Positions 1,321 to 55,340 of a stretch of 64,000 bases of DNA are shown one piece after another. Both the position numbers and the translations under genes were made by a program. The DNA comes from an uncultured Gammaproteobacteria bacterium (lineage in GTDB: Bacteria; Patescibacteriota; Patescibacteriia; Magasanikbacterales; GWA2-37-8): positions 45,065 to 109,064 of the forward strand of contig CAZXML010000001.1 of NCBI GenBank assembly GCA_964641245.1, in the 5' to 3' direction. The notes beneath the pieces are model-generated. The model did no database searches. It was not told where the DNA came from and saw nothing but the letters and a program-made list of their open reading frames with translations. The number at the start of each line of letters is the position of its first letter. Position 1 is the first letter of the stretch.

Positions 1321-1404
1321 TGTCATTCTGAGCAAAGCGAAGAATCTCTGTCCGGCTGGTCAAAACGGTACTGACAGAGATCCTTCACTGCGTTCAGGAT
1401 GACA
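1321..1404. repeat. Family-A miniature palindromic element (TGTCATTCTGAGCAAAGCGAAGAATCTCTGTC...GACAGAGATCCTTCACTGCGTTCAGGATGACA)
   Basis: Imperfect palindrome with near-identical copies at 19004, 20417, 21290, 41493 and 50664. Confidence 0.85.
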
Positions 1405-1433
1405 AATAATATAAATAATTAGCTACCATTTGT

Positions 1434-4400
1434 ATGAAAGCAAGCTGGCTAAATATATTTTTCCATTTTTCCGGAAAAATATTCAAATTAAAACAAGGCT
1501 TAATTGCTTCCACCCGCTGGTATGTGGCGGTGTATTATGCTTTATTGTTGTTTTTTGTGGAGTTGGCTTTGGCTATTATTTCTTTTCCGCTGTATTTTTT
1601 GGTTTCTCCAAAAGATATTCAAAAAGGGGGATTATATTCGTTGCCCGGTCCGCAAGCGTCTATAAACGAATATCTTTGGCGCAGAAGAATCGGCCTTACC
1701 ACCGGTGTTGGCGCCACATCCGTATTTTTGCTTAAAGTTGTTTTAGTCGGCGTGGTCTCTTTTTATTTTTTGGGAGCGCAAAAATTGCTGGCCGATTCGC
1801 AAGATTGGACTTTTGGGACGCCATCGGATTATACATATAATTCTTCCATCGTTGAAATTACCGGCGGGGTTGCGCGGTTAAAAGATCTTGGAAGTTTGGT
1901 TGCCAGTAGCACAATTAATTCCGGTTTTACCACTAATTCGGTTGGTTGGACAAACGCAGATTGGACCGATCCAGGCAATGTAACTGTGGGCCAAACTCGG
2001 CAGACATCTGGTGGAAACACCGGCGCTTATGTAGATGTTGATATCGCGATAACCGGTTCGGCTACCGCAAATAGATCCGGCGCCGGTTATTGGCAACAAA
2101 CATTTATTACCAATGTTGCTACTCCGGATACCGCCACGTTAAATTTAGATTGGAAATCAATTACTTACACTTCGCCAACTCCGCCCGCTACATATCGGCT
2201 GTATGCTTTTATTGAAACTACCAGCGGCGCCCCCACCGCAACCAATACCGCTATTTGGAATAGCGGAGAAATTACCGCCGCCACCAGCTGGGCAAGTATT
2301 TCGGCCGTGGATATTGTTAGTAAAATTCCTACGGCCGGCACTTATTATTTAAAAATTGCCGCTTATGCTACCAGCCCATTGGCAACCGGAGCGTATTCTT
2401 TTATTTCCGGCTTTGACAATGTAATTGTAAATTGGTCCAAAACAACTCACTCGTATTCCACCGCCAACCCCACCACCACGCCGGTCGCTTCGCTGTCCGC
2501 GCCAAAAATTATGAGCTGGAACGGATTCACCGAAAACGCTACACTCAACGGCGGTTCAATCAGCTACCAACTCACCGCAGACAATGGAACAAATTGGAAA
2601 TACTGGAACGGCTCTGCTTGGGCAACGTCCAGCGTCAGTAATTTCAACATTGCCAGCGTTATTAATTCCAACATCGCTACTTTCCCCACATCATCCAATC
2701 AAATTAAATGGAGGGCGTACATGACCAGTGACGGAACACAACAAGTATCGCTAAGCGGAGTTTCTATTACATACACCCAAAACGATCCGCCGCACATCAT
2801 AAGTCTGTCGCCGGCGCAAAATACCGGCAATGGCACTGTATATGTTGCTTATAGTTTACAAGACGCCAACAGCGACCCGGAATCATTGGTTGATTATGAG
2901 TATTCATTAACCGGCGCGTTTGCCGGCGAGCAAACCACCATGACCGCTTCTACTTCTGATGCGGCGCATAATGGAATCACAGGATTAAGTTCCTCGCCAA
3001 TCGGCACCGCGCATACATTTGTTTGGGATGCCCGCGCCCAGCTTGGAAACATCGTCACCACCACTGTTTATGTACGCTTACGCGCCAACGACGGTATTGC
3101 TAACGGCGCCTATACCACCAGTTCCGTATTCACAGTAGATTATGTTGCGCCAATCGTTTCCAATGTTTCCGCCGTACAAACACCGGGCACAACCACTGTC
3201 AGTATTTCCTACGATTTAACCGATTTCACAGCGTCCGGTTTAAATGTTGAATTGGGAATCTCCAACGACAGCGGCAGTACCTGGACAATCGCCACTACCT
3301 CTGCCACAGGCAATGTGGGGAGTGGTCAAACCACCGGAACAGGCAAAACCATTACCTGGAACGCGGGCGCGGATTATTCCGGACAAAGCCTTTCTACAAT
3401 GCGGGCGCGGGTAAAAGCGCGTGATAACTGGCAAAACCAGGGAACATTCACCAGTTCTTCAAATTTTTCTTTAGACACTTTGGCCCCGGCCACTCTTGCC
3501 ACCGCCAATTTGCAAGCCCAGCCAAATGCCGGAGACACCACCGTGCTTATCGGCGGAACATTCACCGAAGCCAACCCCAATACCAATGATTTTTACGTTG
3601 CCATTAACAACGGTGTATATAGTAGCGCTACGGCCGGCACAGGTAATACCGCCTCGCCGTCAAACCAAGCCACCGATGTCGGCGCCACTTTAGACGGCAA
3701 TGATTTTATTTCCAAAGTTAAAATTACTCATACCGATGATTTTGGCAACTCCGGAAATAATGAAAATACATCGCCTACCACTACCTATATATATGTAAAG
3801 CCGTACACACCGTCCGCGCCGACATTAAATAATCCGGTAACTACTCGTTTGGATTTAACGATTAACCCGCATGCAAGTGAAACCAGTGGTTTGGAATACG
3901 CCATCCAGGAAACAACCAGCGGTTTTTTTGTCCAGACCGACGGAACTTTGGCCGCCAGCGTTGTCTGGCAAATTTTAGGAACAAGCGCCGGACAGTGGGG
4001 GAATATCACCGCAGTTTCCGGCAAGGCCCGCGTTACCGGTTTATCATCTCCGGTGGCCAATTATGTTTTTAAAGTAAAATCACGCAACACCGGCGATACG
4101 GCGCACGCCACCTCATCCGAATCCGCTTACTCCGCCACCGCGCAAATTACCAACACCGCGCCTTCGGTTTCATTATCAAGTTATTCTCAAACCACAGACG
4201 GAACCCGTTATGTGCCGATAAATTATACCGGCACAGACGCGCAGGGCGATATCAACAGTTTAAATCAACGCCAATATTCCACCGATAACAGCGCCTGGAA
4301 CACCATGACCGAAAAATCCGGCGTGGGTAGTAGCGGCATAACCAACCTCACATTCCTATCTGGTGGCAGTAGTTACAATTTTGCCTGGGATTCAAATACA

Positions 4401-7400
4401 GATTTGCCGAGCGTAGAGGACACCACTGTTTATGTCCGTTTGCGGTCTACCGACACTTTGGCCAGCAGTTCTTTGGCCACCTCCAACGCTTTCGAAATAG
4501 ACAATGTCAATCCGGTTATTTCTACCACCACAGCCAGCCAAGACAGCGGAGCCAGAACCGTAACCATCACCTATAATTTAACCGACGCTAATGCCAGCAA
4601 TGTGCTTTTGGAAATTTCATCCAATAGCGGTTCTACCTGGGTTGTGGCCACATCTTCCGCTACCGGCGCAGTTGGTTCCGGAGTAACAGCCGGTGCCGGT
4701 AAAACTATTACCTGGAACGCGGGTACGGATTTCAATAGTCAATACAACACAACTATGATGGTCCGCGTTACACCGCGGGATACTTTTGGTAATCTTGGTT
4801 CCAGCGCGTCATCGGCCAATTTTACAGTAGACACAAAATCTCCAACCGTTACCAATGTTACCGCCGTTCAAGATTCCGGCGCCTCAACATTTGTTTTCCA
4901 CTACGACATTGTCGAAGACTCCGGAAATTCTCGGGTTGTGCTGGCAATTTCATCCAACAGCGGTAGTACTTGGGTTGTGCCAACGTCTTCGGTTAGCGGA
5001 GATTACGGCGCCAGCGTCACTCCCGGCACCGGCAAAACAATTACTTGGGATGGGGGAGCGGATTATAGTAGTCAGGAAAAATCTACCATGCAAATCCGTC
5101 TTACAGCCACAGATAGTTTCTCAAATAACAGCGTAAACACATCGGCGGATTTTAATTTGGATACATATGCTCCGCGTATTACCAATGTCAGCGCTTCACA
5201 AAATGCCGGCAATACCACCGTGGCTATTTCTTACGATTTAGCGGATGCAAATACCTCCACAATTTTATTGCAAATTTCTTCGGACAATGGTTCCAGCTGG
5301 ACAGTGCCAACCACCACCGCCACCGGAAATCTGGGCAGTAATATTTCCGCCGGCACCGGTAAATCAATTTCCTGGAACGCCGGAACAGATTTCTCCGCCC
5401 AGGATATTTCCAACATGAAAATACGTTTGCGCGGTACCGATACATTTAGCAATCAATCCGGCTACGTAACATCTTCCGCGTTTGCCTTAGACACAAAATC
5501 TCCGGTTGTGGCCACCACCGCCAATTTGCAAGCCCAGCCCAACGCCGGCGACACCACCGCTTTAATCGGCGGATCATTTACCGAAACCAATCCAAACACC
5601 AATAATTTTTATGTCGCGCTTGATGGCGGTTCGTATGGTTCGGCTACCGCCGGCACGGGCAACACCGCTTCTCCTTCAGACCAAAGCACAGCCACCGGCG
5701 TCACCTTAAAAGGCAATAATTATATTTCCAAAGTTAAAATTGTTCACACCGATGATTTTGGATTGGCAACTACAAACGAAAACACATCGCCAGCTACCAG
5801 TTTAAAATATGTTAAACCTTATACACCGTCGGCGCCTACCGCGGATAATCCGGCAGTTGGTGAAGTGGATGTTTTGGTAAATGCTAATCCTTCGGAAGTT
5901 ACCGGTTTGCAATACGCAATTTACGAAACTACGCAAAGTAAGTATGTTCAGGCCAACGGCACACTTGGGGTTACACCAATTTGGCAGACCATCGGCACAT
6001 CATTTGGCCAGTGGGGGAACACCACCGCGATATCCGGTAAAATCCGCGTAAACGGATTGGCGAACGCTTCTTATACATATCAATTCAAAACCAAATCACG
6101 CAACAGCTCAGACTTTTTCAACACGGCCAGCAGTGAAAGCGCATTGTCCGCCGGCGCCTCTTCCGCCAATCAAGCGCCGTCAATTTCTATCAATTCGGCT
6201 GCTCAAACCACCAACGGCACTCAATATATTACAGTAAATTATACAGGTACGGATTTGGAAAGCGAAACTGTTTCGCTGGTCAGATACCAATATTCTACAG
6301 ACAACAGCATTTGGAACACAATGACGGAAAAATCAGGTGTTGGTTCGCAGGGAACAAGCGGTTTGGCATTTAGCGCCGCCGGAGCCAGTCATAATTTTGC
6401 CTGGGATGTTGGCGCGGATTTAGCAAACACCGAAGACACAACCGTTTACGTTAGACTCCAAGCCAACGACGGCACCAGCAGTGGAAACACCGCCGTATCC
6501 AGCGCGTTTGTGGTAGACACCAAAAATCCGGCCATTAGCAGTGTCACCGCCAGCCAAAATTCCGGCGCCGGCACCGTGGCTATTTCATATACTTTAACAG
6601 ACGACAGCACCAGCACGATAGTTATGGAAATGTCGTCCAGCAGTGGTTCTACCTATAATGTTTCCGTCAGTTCTGCAACCGGCAATGTAGGCGCAGGAAT
6701 TTCATCCGGCTCCGGTAAATCTATTTCCTGGAATGCCGGCACAGACTTTTCCGGTCAGGAATTATCTACCATGAAAACACGTTTACGCGCCACGGATGCA
6801 TTTGGCAACGTGGGTTCGTTATCCGCGTCCGGTTTGTTTGACTTAGACACCAAAGTTCCGGCTGTTTCCAACGTTTCGGCTATTCAAAGCGCCGGTGGCG
6901 GGTCCGTATCAATTACCTATGATTTAAGCGACACAAATCAAAGCACTGTTGTCTTGGAAGTTTCTTCAAGCAGTGGTTCTACCTGGCTAGTGCCGGTTAG
7001 TTCGGTTACCGGAGCGGTTGGTTCCGGAGTTTCGGGCGGTACCGGAAAGACAATTACGTGGAATGCTAATGCGGATTTCTCGGGCCAAGAATTTGCCGGC
7101 ATGATTGCGCGGGTTAGGGCCACCGATATTTATAGCAATGCCGGAAGCAATGTTCAGTCCGGAGCATTTTCCTTAGACACGAAAGCCCCGGTTGTATTAA
7201 ATGTTGGCGCTTCACAAACAGCCGGCACTACTACTGTGGTAATTTCTTACGATTTATCAGATTTGGGAACAAGCACGGTAGATGTTGAAATATCTTCCAA
7301 TAACGGTTTGGGTTGGACAGTGGCCACGAGCACACTTACGGGTTCGGTTGGCTCAAATATTACGGCTGGATTCGGCAAAACAGTAGTTTGGAATGCTAAA

Positions 7401-14660: not shown

Positions 14661-14663
14661 TAG

Positions 14664-14745
14664 GTATTAAGTATTATGTATCAAGTATTATGCGGTTGTT
14701 TGTCCGTACGATACTTAATACCTAATACTTAATACGTAATACTTA
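14664..14745. repeat. Family-F AT-rich palindrome (GTATTAAGTATTATG...TACTTAATAC)
   Basis: Long imperfect inverted repeat. A related copy lies at 32037-32123. Confidence 0.6.
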
Positions 14746-15829: not shown

Positions 15830-15856
15830 AAGTATTAAGTATTAATTTATTTCAAT

Positions 15857-15928
15857 TGTCATTCTGAGCATAGCGAAGAATCCCTCTCGTTTATGTGTAA
15901 GGGATCCTTCACTTCGTTCAGGATGACA
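15857..15928. repeat. Family-A miniature palindromic element (variant)
   Basis: TGTCATTCTGAGCATAGCGAAGAATCCCTC...GGGATCCTTCACTTCGTTCAGGATGACA. Confidence 0.8.
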
Positions 15929-15938
15929 GAAAAATCGT

Positions 15939-16487
15939 ATGAACATCACAGACTTTAAAAGCGACTTCGACTCCGCCATTTCATTCTTCAAAGAAGACAT
16001 TTCCGGATTAAGAACCGGCCGGGCGTCGGCGGCGATAGTTGAAGACATAATGGTAGAAGCCTACGGCACGCACCAAACCCTAAAATCTTTGGCCTCAATT
16101 AATATCCCCGATGCCAAAACCGTAAATATTGACCCTTGGGATAAGAGTGTTTTGTCGGCCGTAGAAAAAGCTATCCGTGATTCCGGTTTGGGTTTAAATC
16201 CGGTAAATACGGGCAGTCAGATTCGCTTAGCCATGCCGGAACTAACCAGCGAACGCCGGAATGAGTTAATAAAAATTTTACATCAAAAAGAAGAAGGCGC
16301 CCGGATTGCCCTTCGTAAAACCAGAGAGGAAGTAAAAGAAATGATAAAATCCGCCGAAGCAGACGGTGAAGTTACCGAAGATGAAAAATACCGTTTGCAG
16401 GAAGATCTGGAAAAATTGGTAAAAGAATACAACGATAAAGTTAAAGATATTGTGGTAAAGAAAGAAGGGGAGATAAATACGATATAG
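15939..16487 (+). CDS. frr: Ribosome recycling factor
   Basis: 182 aa. Its length and the conserved RRF pattern (RTGRASAAIVEDIMVEAYG...IPDAKT...LAMPELTSERR) fit RRF. Confidence 0.85.
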   Translation: MNITDFKSDFDSAISFFKEDISGLRTGRASAAIVEDIMVEAYGTHQTLKSLASINIPDAKTVNIDPWDKSVLSAVEKAIRDSGLGLNPVNTGSQIRLAMPELTSERRNELIKILHQKEEGARIALRKTREEVKEMIKSAEADGEVTEDEKYRLQEDLEKLVKEYNDKVKDIVVKKEGEINTI

Positions 16488-19003: not shown

Positions 19004-19087
19004 TGTCATTCTGAGCAAAGCGAAGAATCTCTGTCTGGTTGGTAAAAACAATACTGACAGAGATCCTTCACTGCGTTCAGGATGACA
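19004..19087. repeat. Family-A miniature palindromic element
   Basis: Canonical copy. It overlaps the annotated ORF start, so the real peptidase start is downstream. Confidence 0.85.
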
Positions 19088-20393: not shown

Positions 20394-20524
20394 TGTCATC
20401 CCCCCGACCCATTAATTGTCATTCTGAGCAAAGCGAAGAATCTCTGTCCGTTCGGCGATTGAGACAGAGATCCTTCACTGCGTTCAGGATGACAGTTGGC
20501 GCAAGACTCGCTCGGAATGACAAA
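20394..20524. repeat. Cluster of a TGTCATCC fragment, a family-A element and a partial GAATGACA terminus
   Basis: CTGTCATCCCCCCGACC, then the full A element 20417-20494, then CTCGGAATGACA. Confidence 0.75.
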
Positions 20525-21289: not shown

Positions 21290-21435
21290 TGTCATTCTGA
21301 GCAAAGCGAAGAATCTCTGTCCGCATATTGTCATTCCCGCCCGAGAGCGGGAATCCAGACAATTCAACCGGACACTGGATTCCCAATCAAGTTGGGAATG
21401 ACAGACAGAGATCCTTCACTGCGTTCAGGATGACA
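21290..21435. repeat. Nested elements: a family-D palindrome (TGTCATTCCCGC...GGGAATGACA, 21339-21404) inserted inside a family-A element
   Basis: The A left half is at 21290-21328 and the A right half at 21405-21435. They are interrupted by a complete D-type element. Confidence 0.8.
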
Positions 21436-22424: not shown

Positions 22425-22492
22425 CCACCGCCCGCGGGCGGGGTGCCGCCACGGGGCGGCATAAACTTCCAATGATTAAATAACAATTAAAC

Positions 22493-23614: not shown

Positions 23615-23881
23615 ATGCAACACTTTGTATATATCTTGAAATGTTGCGATGAGAGTTTTTATACAGGTTTAAGCAACAATCTTAAAAGAAGATTGAAAGA
23701 GCATGAGGATGGTAAAAGCGTTAATACAAAAAATTTGAGACCAGTTAAGTTAGTATTTTATTGCTGTTTTAAAGATCAGCATTTAGCTGCAGAATTTGAG
23801 CAATACTTAAAATCACATTCAGGAATTGCGTTTAGGAATAAACACTTAGCTACTACTACAAAACGCACAGTGAAGACATAG
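23615..23881 (+). CDS. GIY-YIG nuclease domain protein (UPF0213 / YhbQ-like)
   Basis: FVYILKC.DESFYTGLSNNLKRRLKEHEDGK is the classic GIY-YIG core. 88 aa. Confidence 0.8.
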   Translation: MQHFVYILKCCDESFYTGLSNNLKRRLKEHEDGKSVNTKNLRPVKLVFYCCFKDQHLAAEFEQYLKSHSGIAFRNKHLATTTKRTVKT

Positions 23882-31609: not shown

Positions 31610-31735
31610 TGTCATTGCGAGGAGTGAAGCGACGCGGTCCCGACCGCGGTCGAGGATCCTCGATTCACTATCGGGACAATCCCATTGTTGGCAGCACCAG
31701 TATTGTGGGATTGCTTCGCTTTGCTCGCAATGACA
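31610..31735. repeat. Family-B miniature palindromic element (TGTCATTGCGAGGAG...GGTCCCGACCGCGGTCGAGGATCCTCGATTCACTATCGGGACAATCCC...CTCGCAATGACA)
   Basis: A full copy in the recR-ybaB spacer. Related copies lie at 35429 (in frame within a CDS) and 36887 (inverted). Confidence 0.85.
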
Positions 31736-33582: not shown

Positions 33583-33648
33583 TGTCATGCTGAACTTGTT
33601 TCAGCATCTTTCGATACACCGTAGATCCTGAAATGAATTCAGGATGAC
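33583..33648. repeat. Family-C element (TGTCATGCTGAACTTGTTTCAGCATC...GATCCTGAAATGAATTCAGGATGAC)
   Basis: Two short hairpins. Copies lie at 45665 and 47766 (inverted), at 52063, and in the 52666-52860 and 55184-55320 clusters. Confidence 0.8.
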
Positions 33649-33756
33649 GGGTAGTTTGGTTCGTCTATTTTAGTCCAGCACGTTTCTTTTGGCAAGAAAA
33701 AATCAAGGCCCGTATGTTAGCAGAAGGGGGATGAAATGTGGGTAGAATTAATTTGA

Positions 33757-34167: not shown

Positions 34168-36471
34168 ATGATTTCTCGCCTTTTACTGAAAAATATGGTT
34201 CCGGCCGGGGCTTTGTCTGCCTTGGCTTATTTGGTTTTTGAAAAATGGCATAATTGGTTTTTGGGAACCCTGGTTTTATTTTTATATTTTTTGTTTGTTT
34301 CGGCCAAAACACAAGGGGTGTTGGTAAATTATTTCGGATTTACAAAATCGTTGCGGATTAGACTGTTGGCATTTTTTTTAAGTCTGGCCACATTGGGCTG
34401 GTTTTTGGGAATTTTTATATTTTTTGATTATTTTAATGGTTTGGCGGTATTTTTATCTTTTTTTGTAAACGCACTGGCGTGGTCACTCGCCACTCAATCG
34501 CTCTCTCCCCTTTTAGGGGAGAGACAGAGAGAGGGGTATACGGCGGGCATTGACGCACAAACAGATACCCCACCCCTCGCCCCTCCCCTAATAGGGGAGG
34601 GAGACCTTGAACCGCCCCACGCCAAAATCAGTGTCTTAATTTATCTGGGCCTGGTAATTTACGGATTTTATCTTTTGATGCAATCCAAAACCGGTGGCGT
34701 CATTTCTTCGCCGTGGCAAACTATTAATCAGAGTTATGTGTGGATTTTTTTGTTGGCTACTTTTTTGCTGGGTGCGTTAATATTTTTCTCAAAGATTTCT
34801 CTAAAAACTCTACTGTTCCTTCTTATAGTACATGCATTTTTACTTCACAGTTATTTACCGCTCACTCACGAATTATTTTACGGCGCGGACGGTTGGAGAC
34901 ATATTGCGAATGAACAGAGATTGGTGGAAGGAAAATCATTCTTAGAAGCAAAGCTTTCTACTGACACAAAAAATCAGAAGTCTGAAGTCCAAAGTCTGAA
35001 GTCCAAAGCCGGGCTTTTGTCTTATGCCAATTATTGGGGAACAAATGCGGCGCTGTCAAAAATACTGCAAATAGATTTAATTTCTTTGACCAAATGGTTT
35101 TTGCCGATTTCCTGGTCAATAATTTTTACTATTTTGTTATTAGAGATTGGATTGGCGTTGGGCTGGTCCGGCCGGAATTCATTGCTCTTTGCTTGGGCCG
35201 GAATGTGGCCGTTTGCTTTGCAGGTTGGCGGTTCTTTTTCTTTGCCCGTGAACTGGGGCTTCCTAATTTTTGTTTTGTTGTTTTTGCTGTTGATTAAAAG
35301 AATAAAAGAGCCAAATGACGAACAGAAAAATATTTTGTTGGCACTTGGACTTGGTTCAGCGCTGGGGTATTTATTATTTTTTGTTTTGTATTGGATGAGT
35401 TTTTTCTTAATGTCGCTTGTCTCACATTTGTCATTGCGAGGAGAGCAGCGACGCGGTCCCGACCGCGGTCGAGGATCCTCGATTCACTATCGGGACAATC
35501 CCATTGTCAGCACTACAGTATTTTGGGATTGCTTCGCTCTGCTCGCAATGACAGTGGTTGCGACATTGATTTTACCGGTTTTAGAGTTAGCTGGGAAGTT
35601 TAGTGTGTGGGATAGCGGGGTAAATATTTTGTTGCAAGCAAAACAATTTGCCGGCAATTTTTTATCTTTATATTTGGCCGCCGGCCCGCGTCCGCACGAT
35701 ATTATTGGCGGGAATATTTTGTTTAATCAAATGCCCGCTTCAATTTTTACATCAAATATTCTTACGCAATGGCTATGGTGGTTGCCAATGGTAATTTTGT
35801 CCGCCATCATTTTTATTATCCTGGGAATTAAGCGAAACAGAAAAGACCCAATTTATAAATTTATCCTGACTATTTTTTCCGTCCTGCTCACCAGTTATTT
35901 TTTATCCTTCTATTTATTATCCGGCGAGCGCTTGTTTTCCCGTCGTCTGGACGCAACACTGGCGCTCTTGTTTTTGATTTTGCTTTTCTACGGAGTAAAA
36001 GATATTCTTGATAAAAAGTGTATGGCTGGTTTAGCGGTAGTTATTTTATCCCTCGCCATCACCGCTTCATATACTTTGGGTCCGGATACTTATACTGTCA
36101 GCGCCAATCAATATACTGCCATCAATTATGTCTGGTCCCAAGAACAAAATAGTAATACGCATTGTGTTTTAGGCAACACTTATCCACTGCTCGCGCTGGA
36201 AGCCGTTTCCGGTAAAGAAATCATCGGCGGCGGTTTCCCCATAGATGCCAGTTTTGCCCAACCGGAACGGGAAGAACTATTTAAACAAATGAATATAGCC
36301 ATCAACGACAATTTACTTTCTCAAACAGCGTCTTTGACCAAAGCCGACCATTGTTGGTTTGTGGGGGAGAAGGCGAATTTTGCACAGCAAGGAATTTTGG
36401 GCGGTAATAGCACAAAAATATTTGGTGATACGGCGGTGGTGAGATATAATACTGCGGTCAATCTAAAATAA
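34168..36471 (+). CDS. Large polytopic membrane protein (767 aa) carrying two in-frame repeat-element insertions
   Basis: More than 12 predicted TM helices. A family-G insertion at 34497-34612 encodes SLSPLLGERQREGY...PPLIGEGDLEP. A family-B insertion at 35429-35553 encodes SLRGEQRRGPDRGRGSSIHYRDNPIV. Confidence 0.55.
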   Translation: MISRLLLKNMVPAGALSALAYLVFEKWHNWFLGTLVLFLYFLFVSAKTQGVLVNYFGFTKSLRIRLLAFFLSLATLGWFLGIFIFFDYFNGLAVFLSFFVNALAWSLATQSLSPLLGERQREGYTAGIDAQTDTPPLAPPLIGEGDLEPPHAKISVLIYLGLVIYGFYLLMQSKTGGVISSPWQTINQSYVWIFLLATFLLGALIFFSKISLKTLLFLLIVHAFLLHSYLPLTHELFYGADGWRHIANEQRLVEGKSFLEAKLSTDTKNQKSEVQSLKSKAGLLSYANYWGTNAALSKILQIDLISLTKWFLPISWSIIFTILLLEIGLALGWSGRNSLLFAWAGMWPFALQVGGSFSLPVNWGFLIFVLLFLLLIKRIKEPNDEQKNILLALGLGSALGYLLFFVLYWMSFFLMSLVSHLSLRGEQRRGPDRGRGSSIHYRDNPIVSTTVFWDCFALLAMTVVATLILPVLELAGKFSVWDSGVNILLQAKQFAGNFLSLYLAAGPRPHDIIGGNILFNQMPASIFTSNILTQWLWWLPMVILSAIIFIILGIKRNRKDPIYKFILTIFSVLLTSYFLSFYLLSGERLFSRRLDATLALLFLILLFYGVKDILDKKCMAGLAVVILSLAITASYTLGPDTYTVSANQYTAINYVWSQEQNSNTHCVLGNTYPLLALEAVSGKEIIGGGFPIDASFAQPEREELFKQMNIAINDNLLSQTASLTKADHCWFVGEKANFAQQGILGGNSTKIFGDTAVVRYNTAVNLK

Positions 36472-36886: not shown

Positions 36887-37012
36887 TGTCATTGCGAGCG
36901 AAGCGAAGCAATCCCAAAATACTGTAGTGCTGACAATGGGATTGTCCCGATAGTGAATCGAGGATCCTCGACCGCGGTCGGGACCGCGTCGCTACGGCTC
37001 CTCGCAATGACA
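36887..37012. repeat. Family-B element (inverted relative to 31610)
   Basis: TGTCATTGCGAGCGAAGCGAAGCAATCCC...CGAGGATCCTCGACCGCGGTCGGGACC...CTCGCAATGACA. Confidence 0.85.
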
Positions 37013-40706: not shown

Positions 40707-41948
40707 ATGTCCAAAGCAAATAAAAAAATAAAGGTTTTGTGTACCATGAGTGGCGGGGTGGATTCCTCGGTTGCCTCGGCTCTTTTGGTTGCCCAAGGCT
40801 ATGATGTTACTGGCGCATTCATGGTCAATTACGACGAAATTGGCCCGCAAGGCGAATCCTGCTGGACTAGTGATTATCAAGACGCTCTGCGGGTGGCGGC
40901 CAAGCTGGGCATACCGCTGATGCGTTTGGATTTTGTAAAAGAATATAAAAAAACCGTTTTGGATTATATGTATGAGGAGTACCGGAAAGGCAGAACGCCG
41001 AACCCGGATGTTTTGTGTAATAAGTTTGTAAAGTTTGGCGTGTGGTTGGAAAAGGCGAAGGAGTTGGGGTTTGATAAGCTCGCAACAGGTCACTACGCGC
41101 GTCTCGCAAATTCCCCGCTTGGGCCTGCCTGCCGGCAGGCAGGCGGGGTAAGGGGTGGGTTGGCGTTAATGGAAGCGATGGATGCCAACAAAGACCAAAC
41201 CTATTTTTTACACCAATTAAATCAGGAACAATTAAAATTCGTTTTATTTCCTATCGGAGAATACACCAAGCCCCAAGTTAGAAAATTGGCCAAAAAATTC
41301 AATTTACCAAATGCCGACAAGGAAGAAAGCATGGGAATTTGTTTTGTGGGCGAAGTGCCAATGAAAGAATTTTTATTGAAAAAAATTAAGGCGAAAAAAG
41401 GGAAAATTATTTTAAGTACTGGTGAACAAATTGGCGTGCACGATGGTCTGCCTTTTTATACTATCGGACAGCGCCAAGGCCTTCGGACGTCTTGTCATTC
41501 TGAACGGAGTGAAGAATCTCTGTCTCAATCGTCAAACGGACAGAGATCCTTCGCTGGCACTCAGGATGACAATACGCGACCGCTTTACGTTCTTGCTAAA
41601 AATTTTGAGAAAAACGAATTGGTAGTCGGCTACGAAGACGATCCGTTATTATATAAAAAAACCGCCGAAGTGTCGGAGGTAAATTGGGTAAGCGGGCAAC
41701 CACCGAAATTTCCCTTAAATTGCGAAGTCCGTTTGCGTCATCGACAATCACTGCAAAAGTGCCTCGTTGATTCCCCGCTTGTCCCGATTCTCGAGAATCG
41801 TGGATCCCGACTCACTGTCGGGAGGCGGTCTACGGGTAGGGGTGGGTTGGCCATTAAATTTTCCAAACCTCAACGCGCGGTAACCCCCGGCCAATTTGCT
41901 GTCTTCTATAAAAAAGGTGAATGTCTTGGCGGTGGAATAATAAACTAA
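40707..41948 (+). CDS. mnmA: tRNA-specific 2-thiouridylase MnmA carrying three in-frame palindromic-element insertions
   Basis: PP-loop CTMSGGVDSSVA and the conserved MnmA core. It is 413 aa against about 360 typical. Extra segments are encoded at 41107-41165, 41493-41571 (family A) and 41770-41855. Confidence 0.85.
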   Translation: MSKANKKIKVLCTMSGGVDSSVASALLVAQGYDVTGAFMVNYDEIGPQGESCWTSDYQDALRVAAKLGIPLMRLDFVKEYKKTVLDYMYEEYRKGRTPNPDVLCNKFVKFGVWLEKAKELGFDKLATGHYARLANSPLGPACRQAGGVRGGLALMEAMDANKDQTYFLHQLNQEQLKFVLFPIGEYTKPQVRKLAKKFNLPNADKEESMGICFVGEVPMKEFLLKKIKAKKGKIILSTGEQIGVHDGLPFYTIGQRQGLRTSCHSERSEESLSQSSNGQRSFAGTQDDNTRPLYVLAKNFEKNELVVGYEDDPLLYKKTAEVSEVNWVSGQPPKFPLNCEVRLRHRQSLQKCLVDSPLVPILENRGSRLTVGRRSTGRGGLAIKFSKPQRAVTPGQFAVFYKKGECLGGGIIN

Positions 41949-45664: not shown

Positions 45665-45734
45665 TGTCATGCTGAACTTGTTTCAGCATCCAGTCGGATA
45701 AATTAATAGATCCTGAATCAAGTTCAGGATGACA
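45665..45734. repeat. Family-C element
   Basis: GTCATGCTGAACTTGTTTCAGCATC...GATCCTGAATCAAGTTCAGGATGACA, between rpsM and rpsK. Confidence 0.8.
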
Positions 45735-45746
45735 AATAATATAAAT

Positions 45747-47765: not shown

Positions 47766-47833
47766 TGTCATCCTGAACTAGTTTCAGGATCTACGGAATC
47801 CCCGAAAGATGCTGAAACAAGTTCAGCATGACA
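47766..47833. repeat. Family-C element (inverted)
   Basis: TGTCATCCTGAACTAGTTTCAGGATC...GATGCTGAAACAAGTTCAGCATGACA. Confidence 0.8.
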
Positions 47834-48204: not shown

Positions 48205-48594
48205 ATGAATATGACAACAACAGCGATTAAAAGAAAAAAAATATCTTTAGACGCCTCCGGCCAGATTGTCGGCCGTTTAGCTACCAAAATTGCTATGATT
48301 TTGATGGGCAAAAACAAACCGGATTTCCAGCGCCACATAGACACCGGAGATAAAGTGGAAGTTTCTAACATTAAAGAAATCCGTTTTACCGGAAAAAAGG
48401 CTATCAGCAAAGAATATAGACACCACAGTTTACACCCGGGTGGTTTAAAAATTAAAACAGCCCAGACTTTGATAAAAGAAGATCCGGAAGAAATTCTTAA
48501 GCACGCTGTTTCCAGAATGTTGCCAAAAAACAAAATGCGCACCGCCAGATTATTGCGTATTAAATTTATAAATCAAATAACAAAAAACAATTAG
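48205..48594 (+). CDS. rplM: 50S ribosomal protein L13
   Basis: LDASGQIVGRLATKIAMILMGKNKPDF. Confidence 0.85.
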   Translation: MNMTTTAIKRKKISLDASGQIVGRLATKIAMILMGKNKPDFQRHIDTGDKVEVSNIKEIRFTGKKAISKEYRHHSLHPGGLKIKTAQTLIKEDPEEILKHAVSRMLPKNKMRTARLLRIKFINQITKNN

Positions 48595-48653
48595 CAATAA
48601 ACAAACGGTTTGTTGCTTGTTAATTGCTAGTTGCTAATTGTTAATTAAATACT

Positions 48654-49112: not shown

Positions 49113-49205
49113 TTAGTTGACGGGCAATTGTCATTCCCGCTTGCGGCGGGAATGACAGTAAAATCGTTTGTTTTTTTGGTGTCACTAGGGTAAAATATAC
49201 CCATT

Positions 49206-50651: not shown

Positions 50652-50663
50652 CGTCGTCAATTT

Positions 50664-50744
50664 TGTCATTCTGAGCAAAGCGAAGAATCTCTGTCCGTAC
50701 AATCACAACTAGACAGAGATCCTTCACTACGTTCAGGATGACAA
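50664..50744. repeat. Family-A element
   Basis: TGTCATTCTGAGCAAAGCGAAGAATCTCTGTCCG...GACAGAGATCCTTCACTACGTTCAGGATGACA. Confidence 0.85.
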
Positions 50745-50783
50745 ATCCGTATAATCCGTTAAAAATCCGTGTAATCTATAATT

Positions 50784-51908: not shown

Positions 51909-51913
51909 AAATT

Positions 51914-52663
51914 ATGGAATTGATAAGTGTCATCATCCCCGTCTACAACCACGCCCACACCCTAAAAAGATCCCTAGATTCTATTTTTAACCAAACCTAC
52001 CGCCCTTTAGAGGTAATCGTAGTCAACGACGGCAGCACCGACAATTTCTCCGAAGTCATGTCAAGCTGTCATCCTGAACTTGTTTCAGGATCTATCACTG
52101 TAAAAACAATCTCCCAACCCAACTCCGGCGCCCCCACCGCCCGCAACAACGGCTTCGCCCTCTCCAAAGGCGACTACGTCATCTTCTGGGACGCCGACAC
52201 CCTCGCCAACCCCCAAATGCTCCAAAAAATGTTCTCTTATTTACAAAAACACCCCGACGCTTCTTATTCCTACTCCCAATTCAAATTCGGCTGGAAAACC
52301 ATAAAAAGCCACCCCTTCGACGCTCAAAAACTAAAGCAATTAAATTACATCGACGTCACCTCCCTCATCCGCCGCCAATCTCTCAATTGTCATCCTGAAC
52401 GCAGTGAAGGATCCCTCTCTGTCTGCCCCTTCGACCCATCCCTAAAACGTTTCCAAGACTGGGACCTCTGGCTCACTCTCTTATCCCGTGGAAAAACCGG
52501 CGTCTTCATCCCCGAAGTCCTCTACGAAAAAGTAGTCGGCTCCCGCGAAGGCATCAGCACCTGGCTCCCCAGTTTTATGTATCTTCTACCCTGGAAAACC
52601 AAAGAAGTAAAAAAATACGAATCCGCCCGTTCAATCATTATAAAAAAACACAATCTATTGTAG
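51914..52663 (+). CDS. Glycosyltransferase family 2, with two in-frame partial palindromic-element insertions
   Basis: ISVIIPVYNHAHTLKRSL...LEVIVVNDGSTD, and a D.D region. The insertions encode SSCHPELVSGSITV (52063-52100) and NCHPERSEGSLSVCP (~52378-52425). Confidence 0.7.
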   Translation: MELISVIIPVYNHAHTLKRSLDSIFNQTYRPLEVIVVNDGSTDNFSEVMSSCHPELVSGSITVKTISQPNSGAPTARNNGFALSKGDYVIFWDADTLANPQMLQKMFSYLQKHPDASYSYSQFKFGWKTIKSHPFDAQKLKQLNYIDVTSLIRRQSLNCHPERSEGSLSVCPFDPSLKRFQDWDLWLTLLSRGKTGVFIPEVLYEKVVGSREGISTWLPSFMYLLPWKTKEVKKYESARSIIIKKHNLL

Positions 52664-52665
52664 TA

Positions 52666-52860
52666 TTTTGTCATCCTGAACTTGTTTCAGGATCTTTGTC
52701 CGTCAGTTGTCATCCTGTCCGTCATTTGTCATCCTGACAAAGGCCGTAGCCGCCGAAGGATCTATACCTATTAAAGAAAATCGTAAATTCGCGGCTTGTC
52801 ATCTAGTTTTTTAATTGTCATCCTGAACTTGTTTCAGGATCTATCATTTGTAAAACACCT
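52666..52860. repeat. Cluster of family-C / TGTCATCCTG hairpin elements
   Basis: At least four TGTCATCCTG termini. It matches 55184-55320. Confidence 0.75.
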
Positions 52861-52885
52861 CAGGAGAGCGTAAACTACCACCAAC

Positions 52886-53200
52886 ATGCCCACCAAAACC
52901 ATCCTCAACCGCCTCCAAAAAACCTGCGCGTGTTGCGGTAAAGCAATTCATGTCATCGTCTATTCTCCCGCAGCGAGCGGGATCCTCGACTCGTGGAGTC
53001 GGGAAAAAAAAGATTATCGCGGCGGCCATTTCTTTGGAAAACTCCCGCTATATACCAAAAAAGAGGAAGCGCGCGCCCACAGTTTTGGTTTTACAAAAGA
53101 ACTTTTTGGAAAAACAGAGGTAAGAGTCATGAAAAAAGACCCTAAGCCGTATGGGTATGTGGAGTATTGGGAGTGTCCGAAGTGTTATTGGCAAGGATAA
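52886..53200 (+). CDS. Small Cys-rich (zinc-ribbon-like) protein
   Basis: CACCGK...CPKCYW. It contains a CCCGCAGCGAGCGGGATCCTCGACTCGTGGAGTCGGG hairpin in frame. Confidence 0.45.
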   Translation: MPTKTILNRLQKTCACCGKAIHVIVYSPAASGILDSWSREKKDYRGGHFFGKLPLYTKKEEARAHSFGFTKELFGKTEVRVMKKDPKPYGYVEYWECPKCYWQG

Positions 53201-53990: not shown

Positions 53991-53991
53991 T

Positions 53992-54362: not shown

Positions 54363-55013
54363 ATGTGGTATTTGTACTTAGACGAAAGTGGTGATTTGGG
54401 TTTTGATTTTGTAAATAAAAAACCATCGAAATTTTTTACGGTTGCCATTTTGGCATTGAGCACCCGCGACGCTAATCGCCAGATGATTAAAGCGGTTAAA
54501 ATTACGTTGCGTCGCAAGCTCAACAGCGCCAAGCGTCAAAAAAGAATCGCTCAGGAACTTAAAGGTACTGGTACAACGATAGAAGTAAAAAAGTATTTTT
54601 TCGGAAAGGCAAAAAAAATTAAATTTGGCATCTACTCTATAACGTTGAATAAGAAAAAAGTTTTTGAAAGATTAGCTAAAGATAAGCCGCGTATCTATAA
54701 CTATATCGCTCGTAAAGTTTTAGACCAAATTCCTTTTGAAAAGAATAATGGTGATAGGGTAGAGTTAATATTAGATAAATCAATGGCTAAACCGGAGATC
54801 GCTGAGTTTAATTCCTACATTCGTCGACAGTTGGAGGGCCGTTTATCACCCACCATTCCTTTGGATATTTATCACTGGCTTTCGCATGAGAATTACGGCT
54901 TGCAGGCTGTGGATTTGTTTTCTTGGGGGATATTTCAAAAATATGAACGACAAAACACCGAATGGTATGGTGTATTTGATGAAAAAGTAAGATTTGATGA
55001 ACAATTTTTATAA
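54363..55013 (+). CDS. DUF3800 family protein
   Basis: The N-terminal YLYLDESGD motif is the hallmark of DUF3800. Confidence 0.55.
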   Translation: MWYLYLDESGDLGFDFVNKKPSKFFTVAILALSTRDANRQMIKAVKITLRRKLNSAKRQKRIAQELKGTGTTIEVKKYFFGKAKKIKFGIYSITLNKKKVFERLAKDKPRIYNYIARKVLDQIPFEKNNGDRVELILDKSMAKPEIAEFNSYIRRQLEGRLSPTIPLDIYHWLSHENYGLQAVDLFSWGIFQKYERQNTEWYGVFDEKVRFDEQFL

Positions 55014-55183
55014 AACAAAAAAGCCCCTTGCGGGGAGGTAGCCTTATAGATTTGTGATGCCTAGATTATAGCCAACCGATGGATGGGAACATCTAGAACA
55101 ATCTACAAAGGACTTATACCTGACTCTAGAATACAGCTTTTTAACCTAAATGTCAATAGTTATCCACAGGTCATTTTATGCCT

Positions 55184-55340
55184 GTCATTCCCGCTTGTCA
55201 CTTGTCATCTCGCGTCTTTAACTGTCATCCTGAGCGAAGCGTAGGATCTATACCTATAAAAGAAAATCGTAAATTCGTATCTTGTCATCCTGAACTTGTT
55301 TCAGGATCTATTAGTTGTAAAACACCCCCAAAAAGCGTAA
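55184..55340. repeat. Cluster of family-D (TGTCATTCCCGC), short TGTCATC and family-C hairpin elements
   Basis: It matches the 52666-52860 cluster. Confidence 0.75.

What the first reader, a model, noticed from the sequence alone, without database searches (positions are those of the whole stretch)
1321..55340. Dense population of TGTCAT-ended miniature palindromic elements in at least five related families
More than 25 copies of 40-130-bp imperfect palindromes all begin (T)TGTCAT[TC][CG] and end in the complementary ...ATGACA(A). They differ only in internal modules. Family A has the GAGCAAAGCGAAGAATCTCTGTC core. Family B has a CGAGGATCCTCG core. Family C is the short CCTGAACTTGTTTCAGGATC hairpins. 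Family D is TCCCGC...GCGGGA. Family E is TTCCCCGCTTG...GGGTAGGGGTGGGTTGGC. Shared termini with modular cores point to a MITE-like family mobilised through the same ends.
Basis: seen in the sequence. Interest (0 to 1): 0.8.

Follow-up and report, generated by a model that had tools for sequence, protein, structure and literature searches.

The report
TGTC-tagged hairpin repeats with GIY-YIG parent
This small candidate-phyla bacterium carries, between and even inside its genes, short DNA hairpin repeats of a family found in many bacterial phyla, and in other genomes the same hairpins bracket a tiny nuclease gene that may be the long-missing enzyme behind them.

Summary
TGTCATYS occurs 40 times against 5.5 expected. 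The basic unit is about 25 nt: an unpaired (T/C)GTC tag, a hairpin that opens with AT and closes with AT, then a C tail. About 35 units are present. They form 14 loci of tag-outward inverted dimers (two with nested copies) plus about 10 solo units. Family E is not TGTCAT-ended.

The dimers fill the short spacers after stop codons. At least two lie in frame inside genes (mnmA and a membrane protein). A syntenic relative has none across 21 kb.

They match the CGTC/TGTC-tagged REP superfamily (Di Nocera 2013; includes Neisseria dRS3 and Rickettsia RPE-4/6), reported to lack a dedicated transposase. There are no target-site duplications, no DDE or RAYT gene, and no Rfam match.

The unit is cosmopolitan: at least 14 phyla and real phage contigs.

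New lead: small UPF0213/Slx1-like GIY-YIG nuclease genes are bracketed by these units. This holds for 51 of 68 metagenome loci (about 24-fold over background) and 9 of 10 finished genomes, each with its host's own hairpin type. These 339-551 bp elements look like the full-length parents, with arms 1-2 mismatches from the window's. No such parent was found in the window.

The parts
1321..1404 (+). Family A dimer (84 nt). ATTCT-type arm, 20-nt spacer, inverted ATCCT-type arm. Lies 22 nt after a stop codon and 29 nt before the next start.
   Evidence: (-43.8 kcal/mol)
15857..15928 (+). Family A dimer (72 nt) between the BNR-repeat gene and frr
19004..19087 (+). Family A dimer (84 nt) between a class II aaRS gene and the M16 peptidase gene
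20394..20522 (+). Degenerate outer TGTCAT...ATGACA pair enclosing a complete A dimer (20417-20494). Lies between the M16 peptidase gene and tpiA.
21290..21435 (+). Family A dimer whose spacer holds a complete family D dimer (21329-21403; ATTCCC...GGGAAT-CCAG units). Starts 1 nt after the tpiA stop codon.
31610..31735 (+). Family B composite (126 nt). TGTCATTGCGAG...CTCGCAATGACA ends with internal TCCCGA..TCGAGGATCCTCGA..TCGGGA and CAATCCCA..TGGGATTG hairpins. Next to recR; the orthologous spacer in L122 is 3 nt.
33583..33649 (.). Family C dimer (67 nt) with 8-bp-stem units. The right tag is CGTC. Lies upstream of dnaB.
35429..35553 (+). Family B composite inside the 767-aa membrane-protein ORF, read in frame. 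The orthologues in L122 and L121 lack these ~32-36 residues.
36887..37012 (-). Family B composite in inverted orientation, between the HIT and NUDIX genes. The orthologous spacer in L122 is 3 nt.
41493..41571 (+). Family A dimer inside mnmA, read in frame as CHSERSEESLSQSSNGQRSFAGTQDD. Absent from many homologues. An orthologous copy in L121 is 90% identical.
45665..45734 (.). Family C dimer between rpsM and rpsK. An orthologous copy is in L123/L124; it is absent from L122.
47766..47833 (.). Family C dimer between rpoA and rplQ. The L122 spacer is 13 nt.
49129..49157 (.). Single perfect palindrome, TGTC-ATTCCCGC...GCGGGAAT-GACA (D-type, dRS3-like)
50664..50743 (+). Family A dimer between the flippase and GT4 genes, which overlap in L122
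52066..52094 (+). Solo C-type unit inside the GT2 ORF (peptide SCHPELVSGSI). Not verified as an insertion.
52387..52415 (+). Solo A-right-type unit inside the GT2 ORF (peptide NCHPERSEGSL). Not verified as an insertion.
52668..52843 (+). Array of same-direction units and unit fragments. Full units at 52669, 52727 and 52816; fragments at 52708 and 52797.
52950..53005 (+). TGTCATCG start followed by TCCCGC..GCGGGATCCTCGACTCGTGGAGTCGGGA hairpins (B-like module). Duplicated at about 55420-55475 with a diverged start.
   Evidence: (D9)
55182..55310 (+). Array of same-direction units upstream of radC. Truncated D unit at 55183, fragment at 55203, full units at 55223 and 55283.
56333..56361 (+). Solo unit TGTC-ATCCCGACCGCAGTGGAGGGAT-CC, directly after a family E copy
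41113..41164 (+). Family E copy (ATTCCCCGC...GGGGTAAGGGGTGGGTTGGC) in frame in mnmA. Not TGTCAT-ended. Other copies at 26890-26925(-), 39420-39495(-), 41770-41852(+) and 56292-56325(+). Shares inner modules with family B.
23615..23881 (+). 88-aa GIY-YIG ORF of a different subfamily (31% identical to the unit-bracketed type). Flanked by other hairpins, not by TGTC units. A possible but unproven partner in this genome.

Best explanation
The elements are tagged REP-type repeats of the CGTC/TGTC superfamily. Each unit is an unpaired (T/C)GTC tag, a hairpin that opens and closes with A-T and T-A pairs, and a C-rich tail. Most units are paired as tag-outward inverted dimers that can fold into one long hairpin or cruciform.

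The dimers are non-autonomous relatives of compact 339-551 bp elements seen in other genomes. In those, the same two arms bracket a roughly 90-aa UPF0213/Slx1-like GIY-YIG nuclease gene.

Inferred mechanism: the nuclease recognises the tagged hairpin, extruded in single-stranded or cruciform DNA, and cuts at or near it. Host repair or recombination then copies, moves or re-homogenises the arms. This gives no target-site duplication.

Copies survive only where they are harmless: directly after stop codons inside operons, where they are transcribed as part of the mRNA, and in frame in surface loops of proteins.

Shown: the anatomy, the positions, presence/absence among relatives, the in-frame copies, the cosmopolitan distribution, and the bracketing of GIY-YIG genes by units.

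Inferred: that the nuclease acts on the units, and how.
For: Anatomy:
- (compensatory pairs).
- dimers fold at -27 to -76 kcal/mol on both strands.

Match to the published CGTC/TGTC definition:
- CGTC is often TGTC; stems start with AT.
- Tag-outward 'HH' dimers, often heterodimers.
- Intragenic copies; no dedicated transposase.
- D units carry the dRS3 ends ATTCCC...GGGAAT.

Mobility:
- L122, a syntenic relative, has no unit in 21 kb, where the window has 9 element loci (7 dimers, 2 of them intragenic, one single palindrome and the intragenic E copies) over the same gene order.
- Nested copies.
- In-frame copies absent from orthologues.

Distribution:
- At least 119 genome stretches from at least 14 phyla. 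The base before GTCAT is T in 99 and C in 36 of 146 matches.
- At least 120 viral contigs, next to portal, capsid and terminase genes.

Nuclease link:
- GIY-YIG is the top Pfam family among 148 ORFs within 500 nt of units.
- Of 80 metagenome loci chosen by the protein alone, 45/75 have a unit upstream and 41/73 have an inverted unit downstream. At least one is present in 51/68. Background is 0.025 per 200 nt per strand.
- 33 compact bracketed elements.
- 9 of 10 finished genomes, each with its host's own hairpin type, in the taxa where CGTC REPs were defined.
- A protein motif covaries with hairpin type, 5/5 and 46/46.
- The window's arms are 1-2 mismatches in 28 from the arms of bracketed elements.
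- The orthologous intragenic dimer is 90% identical between genomes, against 77% for the rest of the gene and 60% for third codon positions. This fits recognition constraint or copy homogenisation.
Against: - No TGTC-bracketed GIY-YIG gene is in the window or in 9 kb beyond it. The window's own GIY-YIG ORF belongs to another subfamily with other flanking hairpins. The rest of the genome was not examined.
- GIY-YIG enzymes hydrolyse DNA and are not known to join strands, so transposition in the strict sense is not explained.
- The association would also arise if the nuclease gene merely inserts into pre-existing dimers.
- Arms are near-identical among A copies, but the spacers are mostly unrelated. 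Simple copying of whole dimers does not predict this.
- The metagenome sample consists of close relatives of proteins first found next to units. The finished-genome sample (43-55% identity) replicates the result only on 10 loci.
- All 8 A dimers share one orientation relative to transcription. RNA-level selection could also explain this.
Confidence: 0.55

Rival explanations
1. The dimers are pre-existing genomic features, spread or kept by something else. The small GIY-YIG gene is a free-standing homing-type cassette that targets the dimer spacer. On this view the short dimers are empty sites, not deletion derivatives.
For: - The ORF sits exactly where the 14-20 nt spacer sits in the short dimers.
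- GIY-YIG enzymes are classic homing endonucleases, and homing needs only cleavage plus repair.
- Relatives of the window's own GIY-YIG occur as tandem cassettes with duplicated tRNA 3' ends.
- Spacers differ among dimers while the arms are conserved.
Against: - It leaves the spread of the dimers themselves, to unrelated sites and into phages, unexplained.
- The arms give only about 30 bp of homology on each side.
- Covariation of protein and hairpin type fits both readings.
Confidence: 0.2
2. The elements are host-useful structures at the RNA or DNA level, kept by selection rather than by mobility. Examples are 3'-end mRNA protection, uneven expression within operons, translation attenuation after stop codons, and protein or supercoiling sites. 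The nuclease link would be incidental.
For: - Ten intergenic dimers start 1-27 nt after a stop codon and end 10-40 nt before the next start in co-directional operons, including ribosomal-protein operons.
- All 8 A dimers have one orientation relative to transcription, as do both copies in L121.
- The hairpins are stable.
- The orthologous copy is more conserved than the gene around it.
- REPs are known to affect mRNA decay and translation when close to stop codons (background).
Against: - A close syntenic relative works with none.
- C and B dimers occur in both orientations.
- Copies lie in frame inside proteins and in phage structural modules.
- There is no U-tract, and terminator-like sites are not enriched, 31 against 26 expected.
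- There is no Rfam family.
- The same units occur in at least 14 phyla.
- This reading does not explain the bracketing of GIY-YIG genes.
Confidence: 0.12
3. The elements are REPINs moved by a RAYT or IS200/IS605-type HUH tyrosine transposase encoded elsewhere in the genome.
For: - The architecture is the same: a tagged hairpin unit, inverted dimers, no target-site duplication.
- GNA-type loops (GCGAAGC, GCGCAGC) are known to make very stable DNA mini-hairpins (own knowledge). This favours a single-stranded DNA substrate.
Against: - The tag is (T/C)GTC, not GTAG.
- No Y1 transposase is among the 30 window proteins scanned, nor among the 25 commonest families of 148 unit-neighbouring ORFs.
- Di Nocera et al. 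found RAYT genes never flanked by CGTC units.
Confidence: 0.08
4. The elements are classical MITEs: internally deleted insertion sequences moved by a DDE transposase through TG...CA terminal inverted repeats.
For: - Terminal inverted repeats of about 32 nt begin with TG and end with CA.
- They are small, multi-copy and modular.
Against: - There is no target-site duplication at any of 16 copies.
- Solo units are common.
- No transposase gene is in the window or enriched near units.
- The only bracketed gene found is a roughly 90-aa nuclease.
Confidence: 0.03

Closest known systems
CGTC-tagged REPs (Di Nocera, De Gregorio & Rocco 2013, PMC3733652), including Neisseria dRS3/NIME units and Rickettsia RPE-4/RPE-6
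   Same: - Unpaired CGTC tag, 'changed to TGTC in many repeats'.
- Stems that start with complementary A-T pairs.
- 8-9 bp stems and 4-5 nt loops (window families C and D).
- Short tail; D units end in CCAG.
- Mostly tag-outward (HH) dimers, often heterodimers, with short spacers.
- Copies inside genes.
- No dedicated transposase known.
- D units share dRS3's ATTCCC...GGGAAT ends.
   Different: - The host is a CPR/Patescibacteria genome, outside the five phyla then listed.
- Family A units have a 5-bp stem, a tandem G-A/A-G mismatch and a 2-bp inner stem, not a plain 8-9 bp stem.
- The tail is CTCT or CTAT rather than CCA.
- D units have 9-10 central bases, where dRS3 has 8.
- The GIY-YIG link is not in that paper.
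REP/REPIN elements with RAYT (TnpA-REP) in Proteobacteria
   Same: - Tagged hairpin unit.
- Inverted doublets as the evolving entity.
- Hundreds of short copies for each one or few protein genes that are themselves bracketed by units (the REPtron layout).
- No target-site duplication.
- Location after genes.
   Different: - The tag is (T/C)GTC, not GTAG.
- The bracketed gene is a GIY-YIG hydrolase, not a HUH tyrosine transposase.
- Unit sequences are near-identical across phyla, whereas REP/RAYT pairs are lineage-specific.
Rickettsia palindromic elements (RPE; Ogata et al. 2000, own knowledge)
   Same: Palindromic repeats inserted in frame in housekeeping protein genes, tolerated as extra loops. 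RPE-4 and RPE-6 are CGTC-tagged.
   Different: RPEs are about 100-150 bp and specific to Rickettsia. Here the elements are 68-126 bp dimers, and most copies are intergenic. Sequence similarity to RPEs was not tested.
MITEs derived from DDE insertion sequences
   Same: Short, non-coding, with terminal inverted repeats. Probably dependent on a protein encoded by longer relatives with the same ends.
   Different: No target-site duplication. Each arm is itself a hairpin with an unpaired tag. The parent encodes a roughly 90-aa nuclease only.
Free-standing and intron-borne GIY-YIG homing endonucleases (I-TevI, Seg proteins); prokaryotic Slx1-like/UPF0213 proteins (PDB 1zg2, 1ywl)
   Same: GIY-YIG catalytic domain. 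Selfish behaviour is known for other branches of the superfamily. The bracketed proteins match UPF0213 structures at E = 2e-8.
   Different: Homing enzymes carry a separate DNA-binding domain and target one allele. The bracketed proteins are a bare catalytic domain. The standalone prokaryotic branch has been regarded as an ancestral, vertically inherited form.

Membership tests
CGTC/TGTC-tagged REP superfamily | Unpaired CGTC (or TGTC/CCTC) tetranucleotide at one end of a short palindrome | tested here: met
   33 of 33 aligned units have GTC before the hairpin: T before it in 32 and C in 1. In other genomes the preceding base is T in 99 and C in 36 of 146 matches.
CGTC/TGTC-tagged REP superfamily | Stem of 8-9 bp whose first two positions are complementary A-T pairs; loop of 4-5 nt | tested here: inconclusive
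   All units start AT and end AT. C and D units have 8-9 bp stems with 5-6 nt loops. A and B units have a 5-bp stem, a G-A/A-G mismatch and 2 more pairs. The published consensus figure could not be read; its supplements hold no sequences.
CGTC/TGTC-tagged REP superfamily | Mostly dimers with tags outside (HH), frequently heterodimers | tested here: met
   14 tag-outward loci. All A dimers pair an ATTCT arm with an ATCCT arm (definition).
CGTC/TGTC-tagged REP superfamily | No RAYT or other transposase flanked by the units | tested here: met
   No transposase domain in 30 window proteins. None among the commonest families next to units.
Neisseria dRS3 | ATTCCC-N8-GGGAAT 20-mer | tested here: not met
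   The window's D units are ATTCCC-N9/N10-GGGAAT. The ends are the same but the centre is longer. Exact dRS3-type units flank the GIY-YIG gene in Neisseria and Aeromonas.
REPIN/RAYT system | GTAG tag, and a RAYT gene bracketed by the REPs | tested here: not met
   The tag is TGTC. No Y1 transposase was found.
Classical MITE | Terminal inverted repeats plus target-site duplication; parent IS with a transposase | tested here: not met
   Inverted ends are present. No consistent duplication at 16 copies; the best chance matches are 1-3 nt. The parent carries a GIY-YIG nuclease.
Rickettsia palindromic elements | In-frame insertion in protein genes, absent from orthologues | tested here: met
   mnmA and the 767-aa membrane protein. 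Sequence relatedness to RPEs was not tested.
Intrinsic terminators | G+C-rich hairpin followed by a U-tract | tested here: not met
   Dimers are followed by A-rich sequence. The terminator scan is not enriched, and only three solo or half units are weakly listed.
Known structured RNA (Rfam 15) | Match to a covariance model at the gathering score | tested here: not met
   No match at the elements. Only sub-threshold chance hits at 50659-50747 and 15851-15956.
GIY-YIG-bracketed elements (proposed here) | UPF0213-type GIY-YIG gene between tag-outward units in the same genome | tested here: inconclusive
   Not present in the window or in 9 kb downstream. The window's GIY-YIG ORF 23615-23881 has other flanking hairpins. 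The remaining roughly 240 kb of the contig could not be read.

The most novel reading that the evidence does not exclude
The CGTC/TGTC-tagged REP superfamily includes Neisseria dRS3/NIME units, rhizobial and sphingomonad REPs, and these CPR elements. It may be the non-autonomous population of a previously unrecognised, cosmopolitan class of minimal mobile or self-maintaining element. The autonomous form would be 339-551 bp: two tagged hairpin arms around a roughly 90-aa UPF0213/Slx1-like GIY-YIG nuclease gene. That would make it a 'REPtron' built on a structure-specific hydrolase instead of a transposase. It would also supply the dedicated enzyme that was reported missing in 2013.
Probability: 0.45. 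Interest if true: 0.9.

Novelty: new variant of a known kind. Interest (0 to 1): 0.72.

Why it matters
There are four reasons.

1. It places a dense repeat population in a reduced CPR genome within a defined superfamily. It shows that these repeats colonise essential genes in frame (mnmA, a membrane protein, probably others). This explains part of the odd length variation and the spurious peptides (CHSERSEESL, SFRAE..., LRSAKSLGRDD) seen in CPR and many metagenomic proteins.

2. The same roughly 25-nt unit occurs almost unchanged in at least 14 phyla and in phages. This needs either horizontal spread or a very conserved partner.

3. The bracketing of small GIY-YIG genes by each host's own unit type gives a concrete, testable candidate for the enzyme behind CGTC REPs. 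That question has been open since they were defined. It also questions the view that standalone prokaryotic Slx1-like nucleases are plain housekeeping genes.

4. If confirmed, these would be among the smallest autonomous elements known, and would use a nuclease class not known to drive bacterial repeat families.

Tried and rejected
- **Structured RNA.** Rfam at gathering and E-value thresholds gave nothing at the elements.
- **Strand-specific G-U signal for an RNA-only structure.** Both strands fold about equally well, with similar wobble counts.
- **Target-site duplication or target motif.** None. The frequent TTAA(T) on the 5' side is largely the upstream stop-codon context.
- **REPtron-like gene between distant inverted units in L054.** It is an ordinary dehydrogenase gene.
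- **Transposase in the window.** 30 proteins were scanned and none was found.
- **Viral neighbours.** No GIY-YIG among the 25 commonest families; only phage structural genes.
- **Literature by sequence strings.** No paper prints these units.
- **Literature linking GIY-YIG/UPF0213 to REPs.** Nothing found in four searches.
- **Supplements of Di Nocera 2013.** They hold no unit sequences.
- **First attempt at a four-protein query for related loci.** It failed because the alignment was too divergent.
- **Extending the window.** Upstream extension failed because the protein is not on record. Downstream extension gave 9 kb with no GIY-YIG gene.
- **Window GIY-YIG flanks.** They were tested for being an inverted repeat pair and were not reported as one.
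- **GT2 intragenic units.** No orthologue was in reach, so they remain unverified as insertions.

Full report
**What the window is.** Gene content marks a Patescibacteria/CPR genome. It includes ribosomal proteins, rpoA, aminoacyl-tRNA synthetases, dnaB, recR, tpiA and frr, nearly all on the + strand. The best named MnmA relatives are Parcubacteria, Magasanikbacteria and 'Patescibacteria group'. Part of the window is JGI contig Ga0136847_11022330, sample 3300010391.

**Checking the observation.**
- TGTCATYS occurs 40 times against 5.5 +/- 2.3 in shuffles.
- Read closely, the repeated entity is a unit of about 25 nt. It has an unpaired tag TGTC (once CGTC), a hairpin whose first pairs are A-T and T-A, and a tail starting with C.
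- A rule-based scan finds 44 candidates, of which about 35 are clear units.
- An alignment of 33 units has GTCAT invariant.
- On 25 units in register, the hairpin is kept through compensatory change. Pair 10-26 is C-G in 15, U-A in 5 and G-C in 3. Pair 15-21 is A-U in 18 and G-C in 5. None is broken, and slid controls collapse.
- Family A units carry a tandem G-A/A-G mismatch and a GNA-like loop. Family C and D units have plain 8-9 bp stems.

**How the units are arranged.**
- Units are mostly arranged as inverted pairs with the tags outside, separated by 14-20 nt (families A, C, D).
- In family B the pair is separated by further small palindromes, including TCGAGGATCCTCGA (6 sites against 0.14 expected).
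- All eight A dimers pair an ATTCT-type arm with an ATCCT-type arm in the same order.
- The dimers fold at -27 to -76 kcal/mol on either strand.
- Two loci are nested: an A dimer inside a degenerate pair at 20394-20522, and a D dimer inside an A dimer at 21290-21435.
- About ten further units at 52.0-56.4 kb are solo and all point the same way.
- Family E is a real repeat but starts ATTCCCCGC and ends GGGTGGGTTGGC, without the shared termini. Four of its five copies are inside ORFs.
The statements '>25 palindromes, all with both ends' and 'five TGTCAT-ended families' are not.

**Where the elements sit.**
- Ten intergenic dimers begin 1-27 nt after the stop codon of the upstream co-directional gene and end 10-40 nt before the next start. 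Two are in the rpsM-rpsK and rpoA-rplQ spacers.
- They are not followed by T-runs, and terminator-like sites are not enriched.
- No Rfam family matches them.
- No target-site duplication is seen at 16 copies.

**Comparison with relatives.** Three relatives with the same gene order were fetched through MnmA homologues.
- L122 (GCA_007376295.1) has no unit in 21 kb. Its recR-ybaB, HIT-NUDIX, rpoA-rplQ and flippase-GT4 spacers are 3, 3, 13 and 0 nt, whereas the window holds 126-, 126-, 68- and 80-nt elements there.
- L123 and L124 share the rpsM-rpsK C dimer with the window, nearly base for base.
- L121 shares the mnmA copy.
- Occupancy therefore differs between related genomes, and some copies are old enough to be orthologous.

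**Copies inside genes.**
- The A dimer at 41493-41571 is read in frame in mnmA as CHSERSEESLSQSSNGQRSFAGTQDD. It lies exactly where the Pfam domain match breaks.
- Homologues range from 337 to 464 aa. They differ by insertions at a few hot spots that carry repeat-derived peptides or nothing.
- The window's MnmA also holds two family E copies.
- In the 767-aa membrane protein, the B element at 35429-35553 and another palindrome at 34494-34610 correspond to residues absent from both orthologues.
- The two units inside the GT2 ORF could not be verified as insertions.
- The orthologous mnmA dimer is 71/79 (90%) identical between the window and L121. The rest of the gene is 77% identical and third codon positions are 60% identical. 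The DNA of the element is therefore constrained, or homogenised against other copies.

**What is known.** Di Nocera et al. (PMC3733652) sorted REPs into GTAG- and CGTC-tagged superfamilies. For the CGTC type they report:
- a tag often changed to TGTC;
- stems of 8-9 bp that almost always start with A-T pairs;
- loops of 4-5 nt and short tails;
- mainly 'HH' dimers, with tags outside, often heterodimers;
- copies inside genes;
- membership of Neisseria dRS3 and Rickettsia RPE-4/6;
- no dedicated transposase.

dRS3 is ATTCCC-N8-GGGAAT (PMC1797815). The window's D units are ATTCCC-N9/10-GGGAAT followed by CCAG. The window's elements fit this superfamily. Family A is a structural variant, and the host phylum is new relative to that survey.

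**Distribution.**
- The hits come from CPR lineages, Bacteroidota, Acidobacteriota, Chloroflexota, Nitrospirota, Planctomycetota, Pseudomonadota, Bacillota, Ignavibacteria, Gemmatimonadota, Omnitrophota, Bdellovibrionota, Desulfobacterota, Melainabacteria and others.
- The commonest forms are GTCAT(C/T)CTGAGCG(A/C)AGCGAAG(G/A)ATC and GTCATGCTGAACTTGTTTCAGCATC. They are preceded by T in 99 and by C in 36 of 146 matches.
- The pattern also hit at least 120 IMG/VR contigs. There the neighbouring ORFs are portal, capsid, protease and terminase genes.

**The search for a parent.**
- I scanned 148 ORFs lying within 500 nt of units in the genome loci against Pfam. The commonest family was GIY-YIG, with 4 members. 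No transposase family was among the top 25.
- In a Saccharibacteria contig (L006), a 93-aa GIY-YIG ORF lies exactly between a left unit and an inverted right unit, followed by an ordinary short dimer.
- Similar layouts occur in a Gracilibacteria locus and a Bacteroidetes locus.

**The reverse test.** I then fetched loci by the protein alone.
The best 80 were kept.
- With a strict unit definition, 45 of 75 evaluable loci have a forward unit within 200 nt upstream.
- 41 of 73 have an inverted unit within 200 nt downstream.
- Both are present in 27 of 68 and at least one in 51 of 68.
- More than 400 nt away, in the same loci, the rate is 0.025 per 200 nt per strand.
- The median distance from tag to ORF is 63 and 65 nt.
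- Thirty-three loci give compact elements of 339-551 bp with unrelated outside flanks.
- The window's arms differ from such arms by 1-2 of 28 bases.
- Proteins with a K-N-W-(H/R)-R...WKI motif go with C-type hairpins (5 of 5). Those with K-G-W-L-R go with A-type hairpins (46 of 46).

**Replication in finished genomes.**
- tblastn of the L006 protein against PLSDB found 34 records from Rhizobium, Sinorhizobium, Shinella, Sphingobium, Azospirillum, Neisseria, Aeromonas, Planktothrix, Spirosoma and others. These are largely the taxa in which CGTC REPs were defined.
- Of ten loci inspected, nine have CGTC/TGTC units beside the gene. Six are clean tag-outward brackets.
- Each uses its host's own hairpin: ATCCCAGGGCTTGACCCTGGGAT in Rhizobium, ATCCTCGGGCTTGACCCGAGGAT in Shinella and S. 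meliloti, ACCCCGGGCTTGACCCGGGGT in Sphingobium, and dRS3-type ATTCCCGCGCAGGCGGGAAT in Aeromonas and Neisseria.
- In Azospirillum the gene, with a dimer on each side, sits between sufB and sufC.

**What the protein is.**
- The proteins match UPF0213 structures 1zg2 and 1ywl.
- Dunin-Horkawicz et al. (PMC1564403) describe the standalone prokaryotic Slx1-like branch as the minimal, probably ancestral form. They do not mention repeats.
- Four literature searches found no paper linking GIY-YIG or UPF0213 to REPs. The library is incomplete, so this is absence of evidence only.

**Interpretation.** The best reading is that the window's elements are non-autonomous members of the CGTC/TGTC REP superfamily. 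The superfamily's autonomous or partner form would be a hairpin-bracketed GIY-YIG nuclease gene.
- Shown: anatomy, position, polymorphism, in-frame copies, distribution and the bracketing.
- Inferred: that the nuclease recognises the tagged hairpin, as Slx1-type enzymes recognise branched and stem-loop DNA (own knowledge), and that cleavage plus host repair spreads or homogenises the arms.

**Open problems.**
- No bracketed gene was found in the window or in 9 kb beyond it.
- The window's own 88-aa GIY-YIG ORF (23615-23881) belongs to a different subfamily. Its relatives sit after tRNA genes, between other inverted hairpins, sometimes as tandem cassettes.
- Hydrolases do not join DNA.
- A-family arms are near-identical while the spacers are not.
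- All A dimers share one orientation relative to transcription: 8 of 8 here and 2 of 2 in L121, about 0.008 by a two-sided binomial for 8 of 8 (my calculation). An RNA-level role or a strand-specific DNA mechanism could each explain this.
- The main rival keeps the nuclease link but reverses it: the gene homes into dimers.

**Verdict.** This is a real, dense repeat population. It is a new variant of a known kind (tagged REPs). The work also gives a testable lead on the missing enzyme of the CGTC REP superfamily.

Noticed in passing
window 23245-23546: A class II tRNA gene, read as tRNA-Tyr(GTA) when the exons are joined, is interrupted in the anticodon loop by a roughly 200-nt group I intron (Rfam hit at 23270-23474). 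A 90%-related contig (L350) has the same tRNA without the intron, so this is an intron presence/absence polymorphism.
   Followed up: partly
window 23615-23881; L339 1040-1950; L350 460-1030: An 88-aa GIY-YIG ORF lies between the intron-bearing tRNA and tRNA-Thr. Its subfamily sits directly after tRNA genes. In a Bacteroidota-like contig it forms tandem cassettes, each bracketed by inverted hairpins and a duplicated tRNA 3' end.
   Followed up: partly
window 55031-55128 (-) and 54363-55013 (+): A DUF3800-V RNA motif (53.6 bits, gathering score 37.4) lies directly after a DUF3800 protein gene, on the opposite strand.
   Followed up: no
window 52815-53025 and 55282-55492: A 211-nt direct repeat (91% identical) holds a C unit plus the 5' end of radC. 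The two copies flank a 2.26-kb segment with an unknown ORF, the DUF3800 gene and its RNA motif. This looks like an insertion that duplicated the radC start.
   Followed up: no
window 22390-22463: A copy of the first ~34 nt of tRNA-Thr(TGT) is followed by a G+C-rich palindrome (GCCACCGCCCGCGGGCGGGGTGCCGCCACGGGGCGGC). It lies 100 nt upstream of the intact tRNA-Thr gene. It may be a truncated or disrupted tRNA copy.
   Followed up: no
window 14661-14745, 32040-32119; 30574-30652, 48575-48653: Two further A+T-rich palindromic repeat families lie in intergenic spacers: GTATTAAGTATTATGTAT-type and AACAATTAGCAATAAACAA-type. They are unrelated to the TGTC units.
   Followed up: no
window 34494-34610: A 117-nt palindrome (CTCTCTCCCCTTTTAGGGGAGAGA ... 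CCCCTCCCCTAATAGGGGAGGGAG) is read in frame in the 767-aa membrane protein. It is absent from both orthologues.
   Followed up: partly
window 1434-10445: A 3003-aa ORF is built of three 2016-nt repeats (71-72% identical), with nested ~330-nt sub-repeats. It is probably a surface protein.
   Followed up: no
L037 5650-6750; L196; L138; window 52.6-52.9 and 55.18-55.31 kb: In several genomes units also occur as same-direction arrays with regular spacing of about 160-210 nt or about 1.2 kb. This recalls Neisseria NIME arrays. The window's solo units belong to such arrays.
   Followed up: no
window 1405-1416 and 45735-45746: An A dimer and a C dimer are followed by the identical 12-mer AATAATATAAAT. 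Either the conserved element extends beyond ATGACA, or a shared leader precedes the next gene.
   Followed up: no
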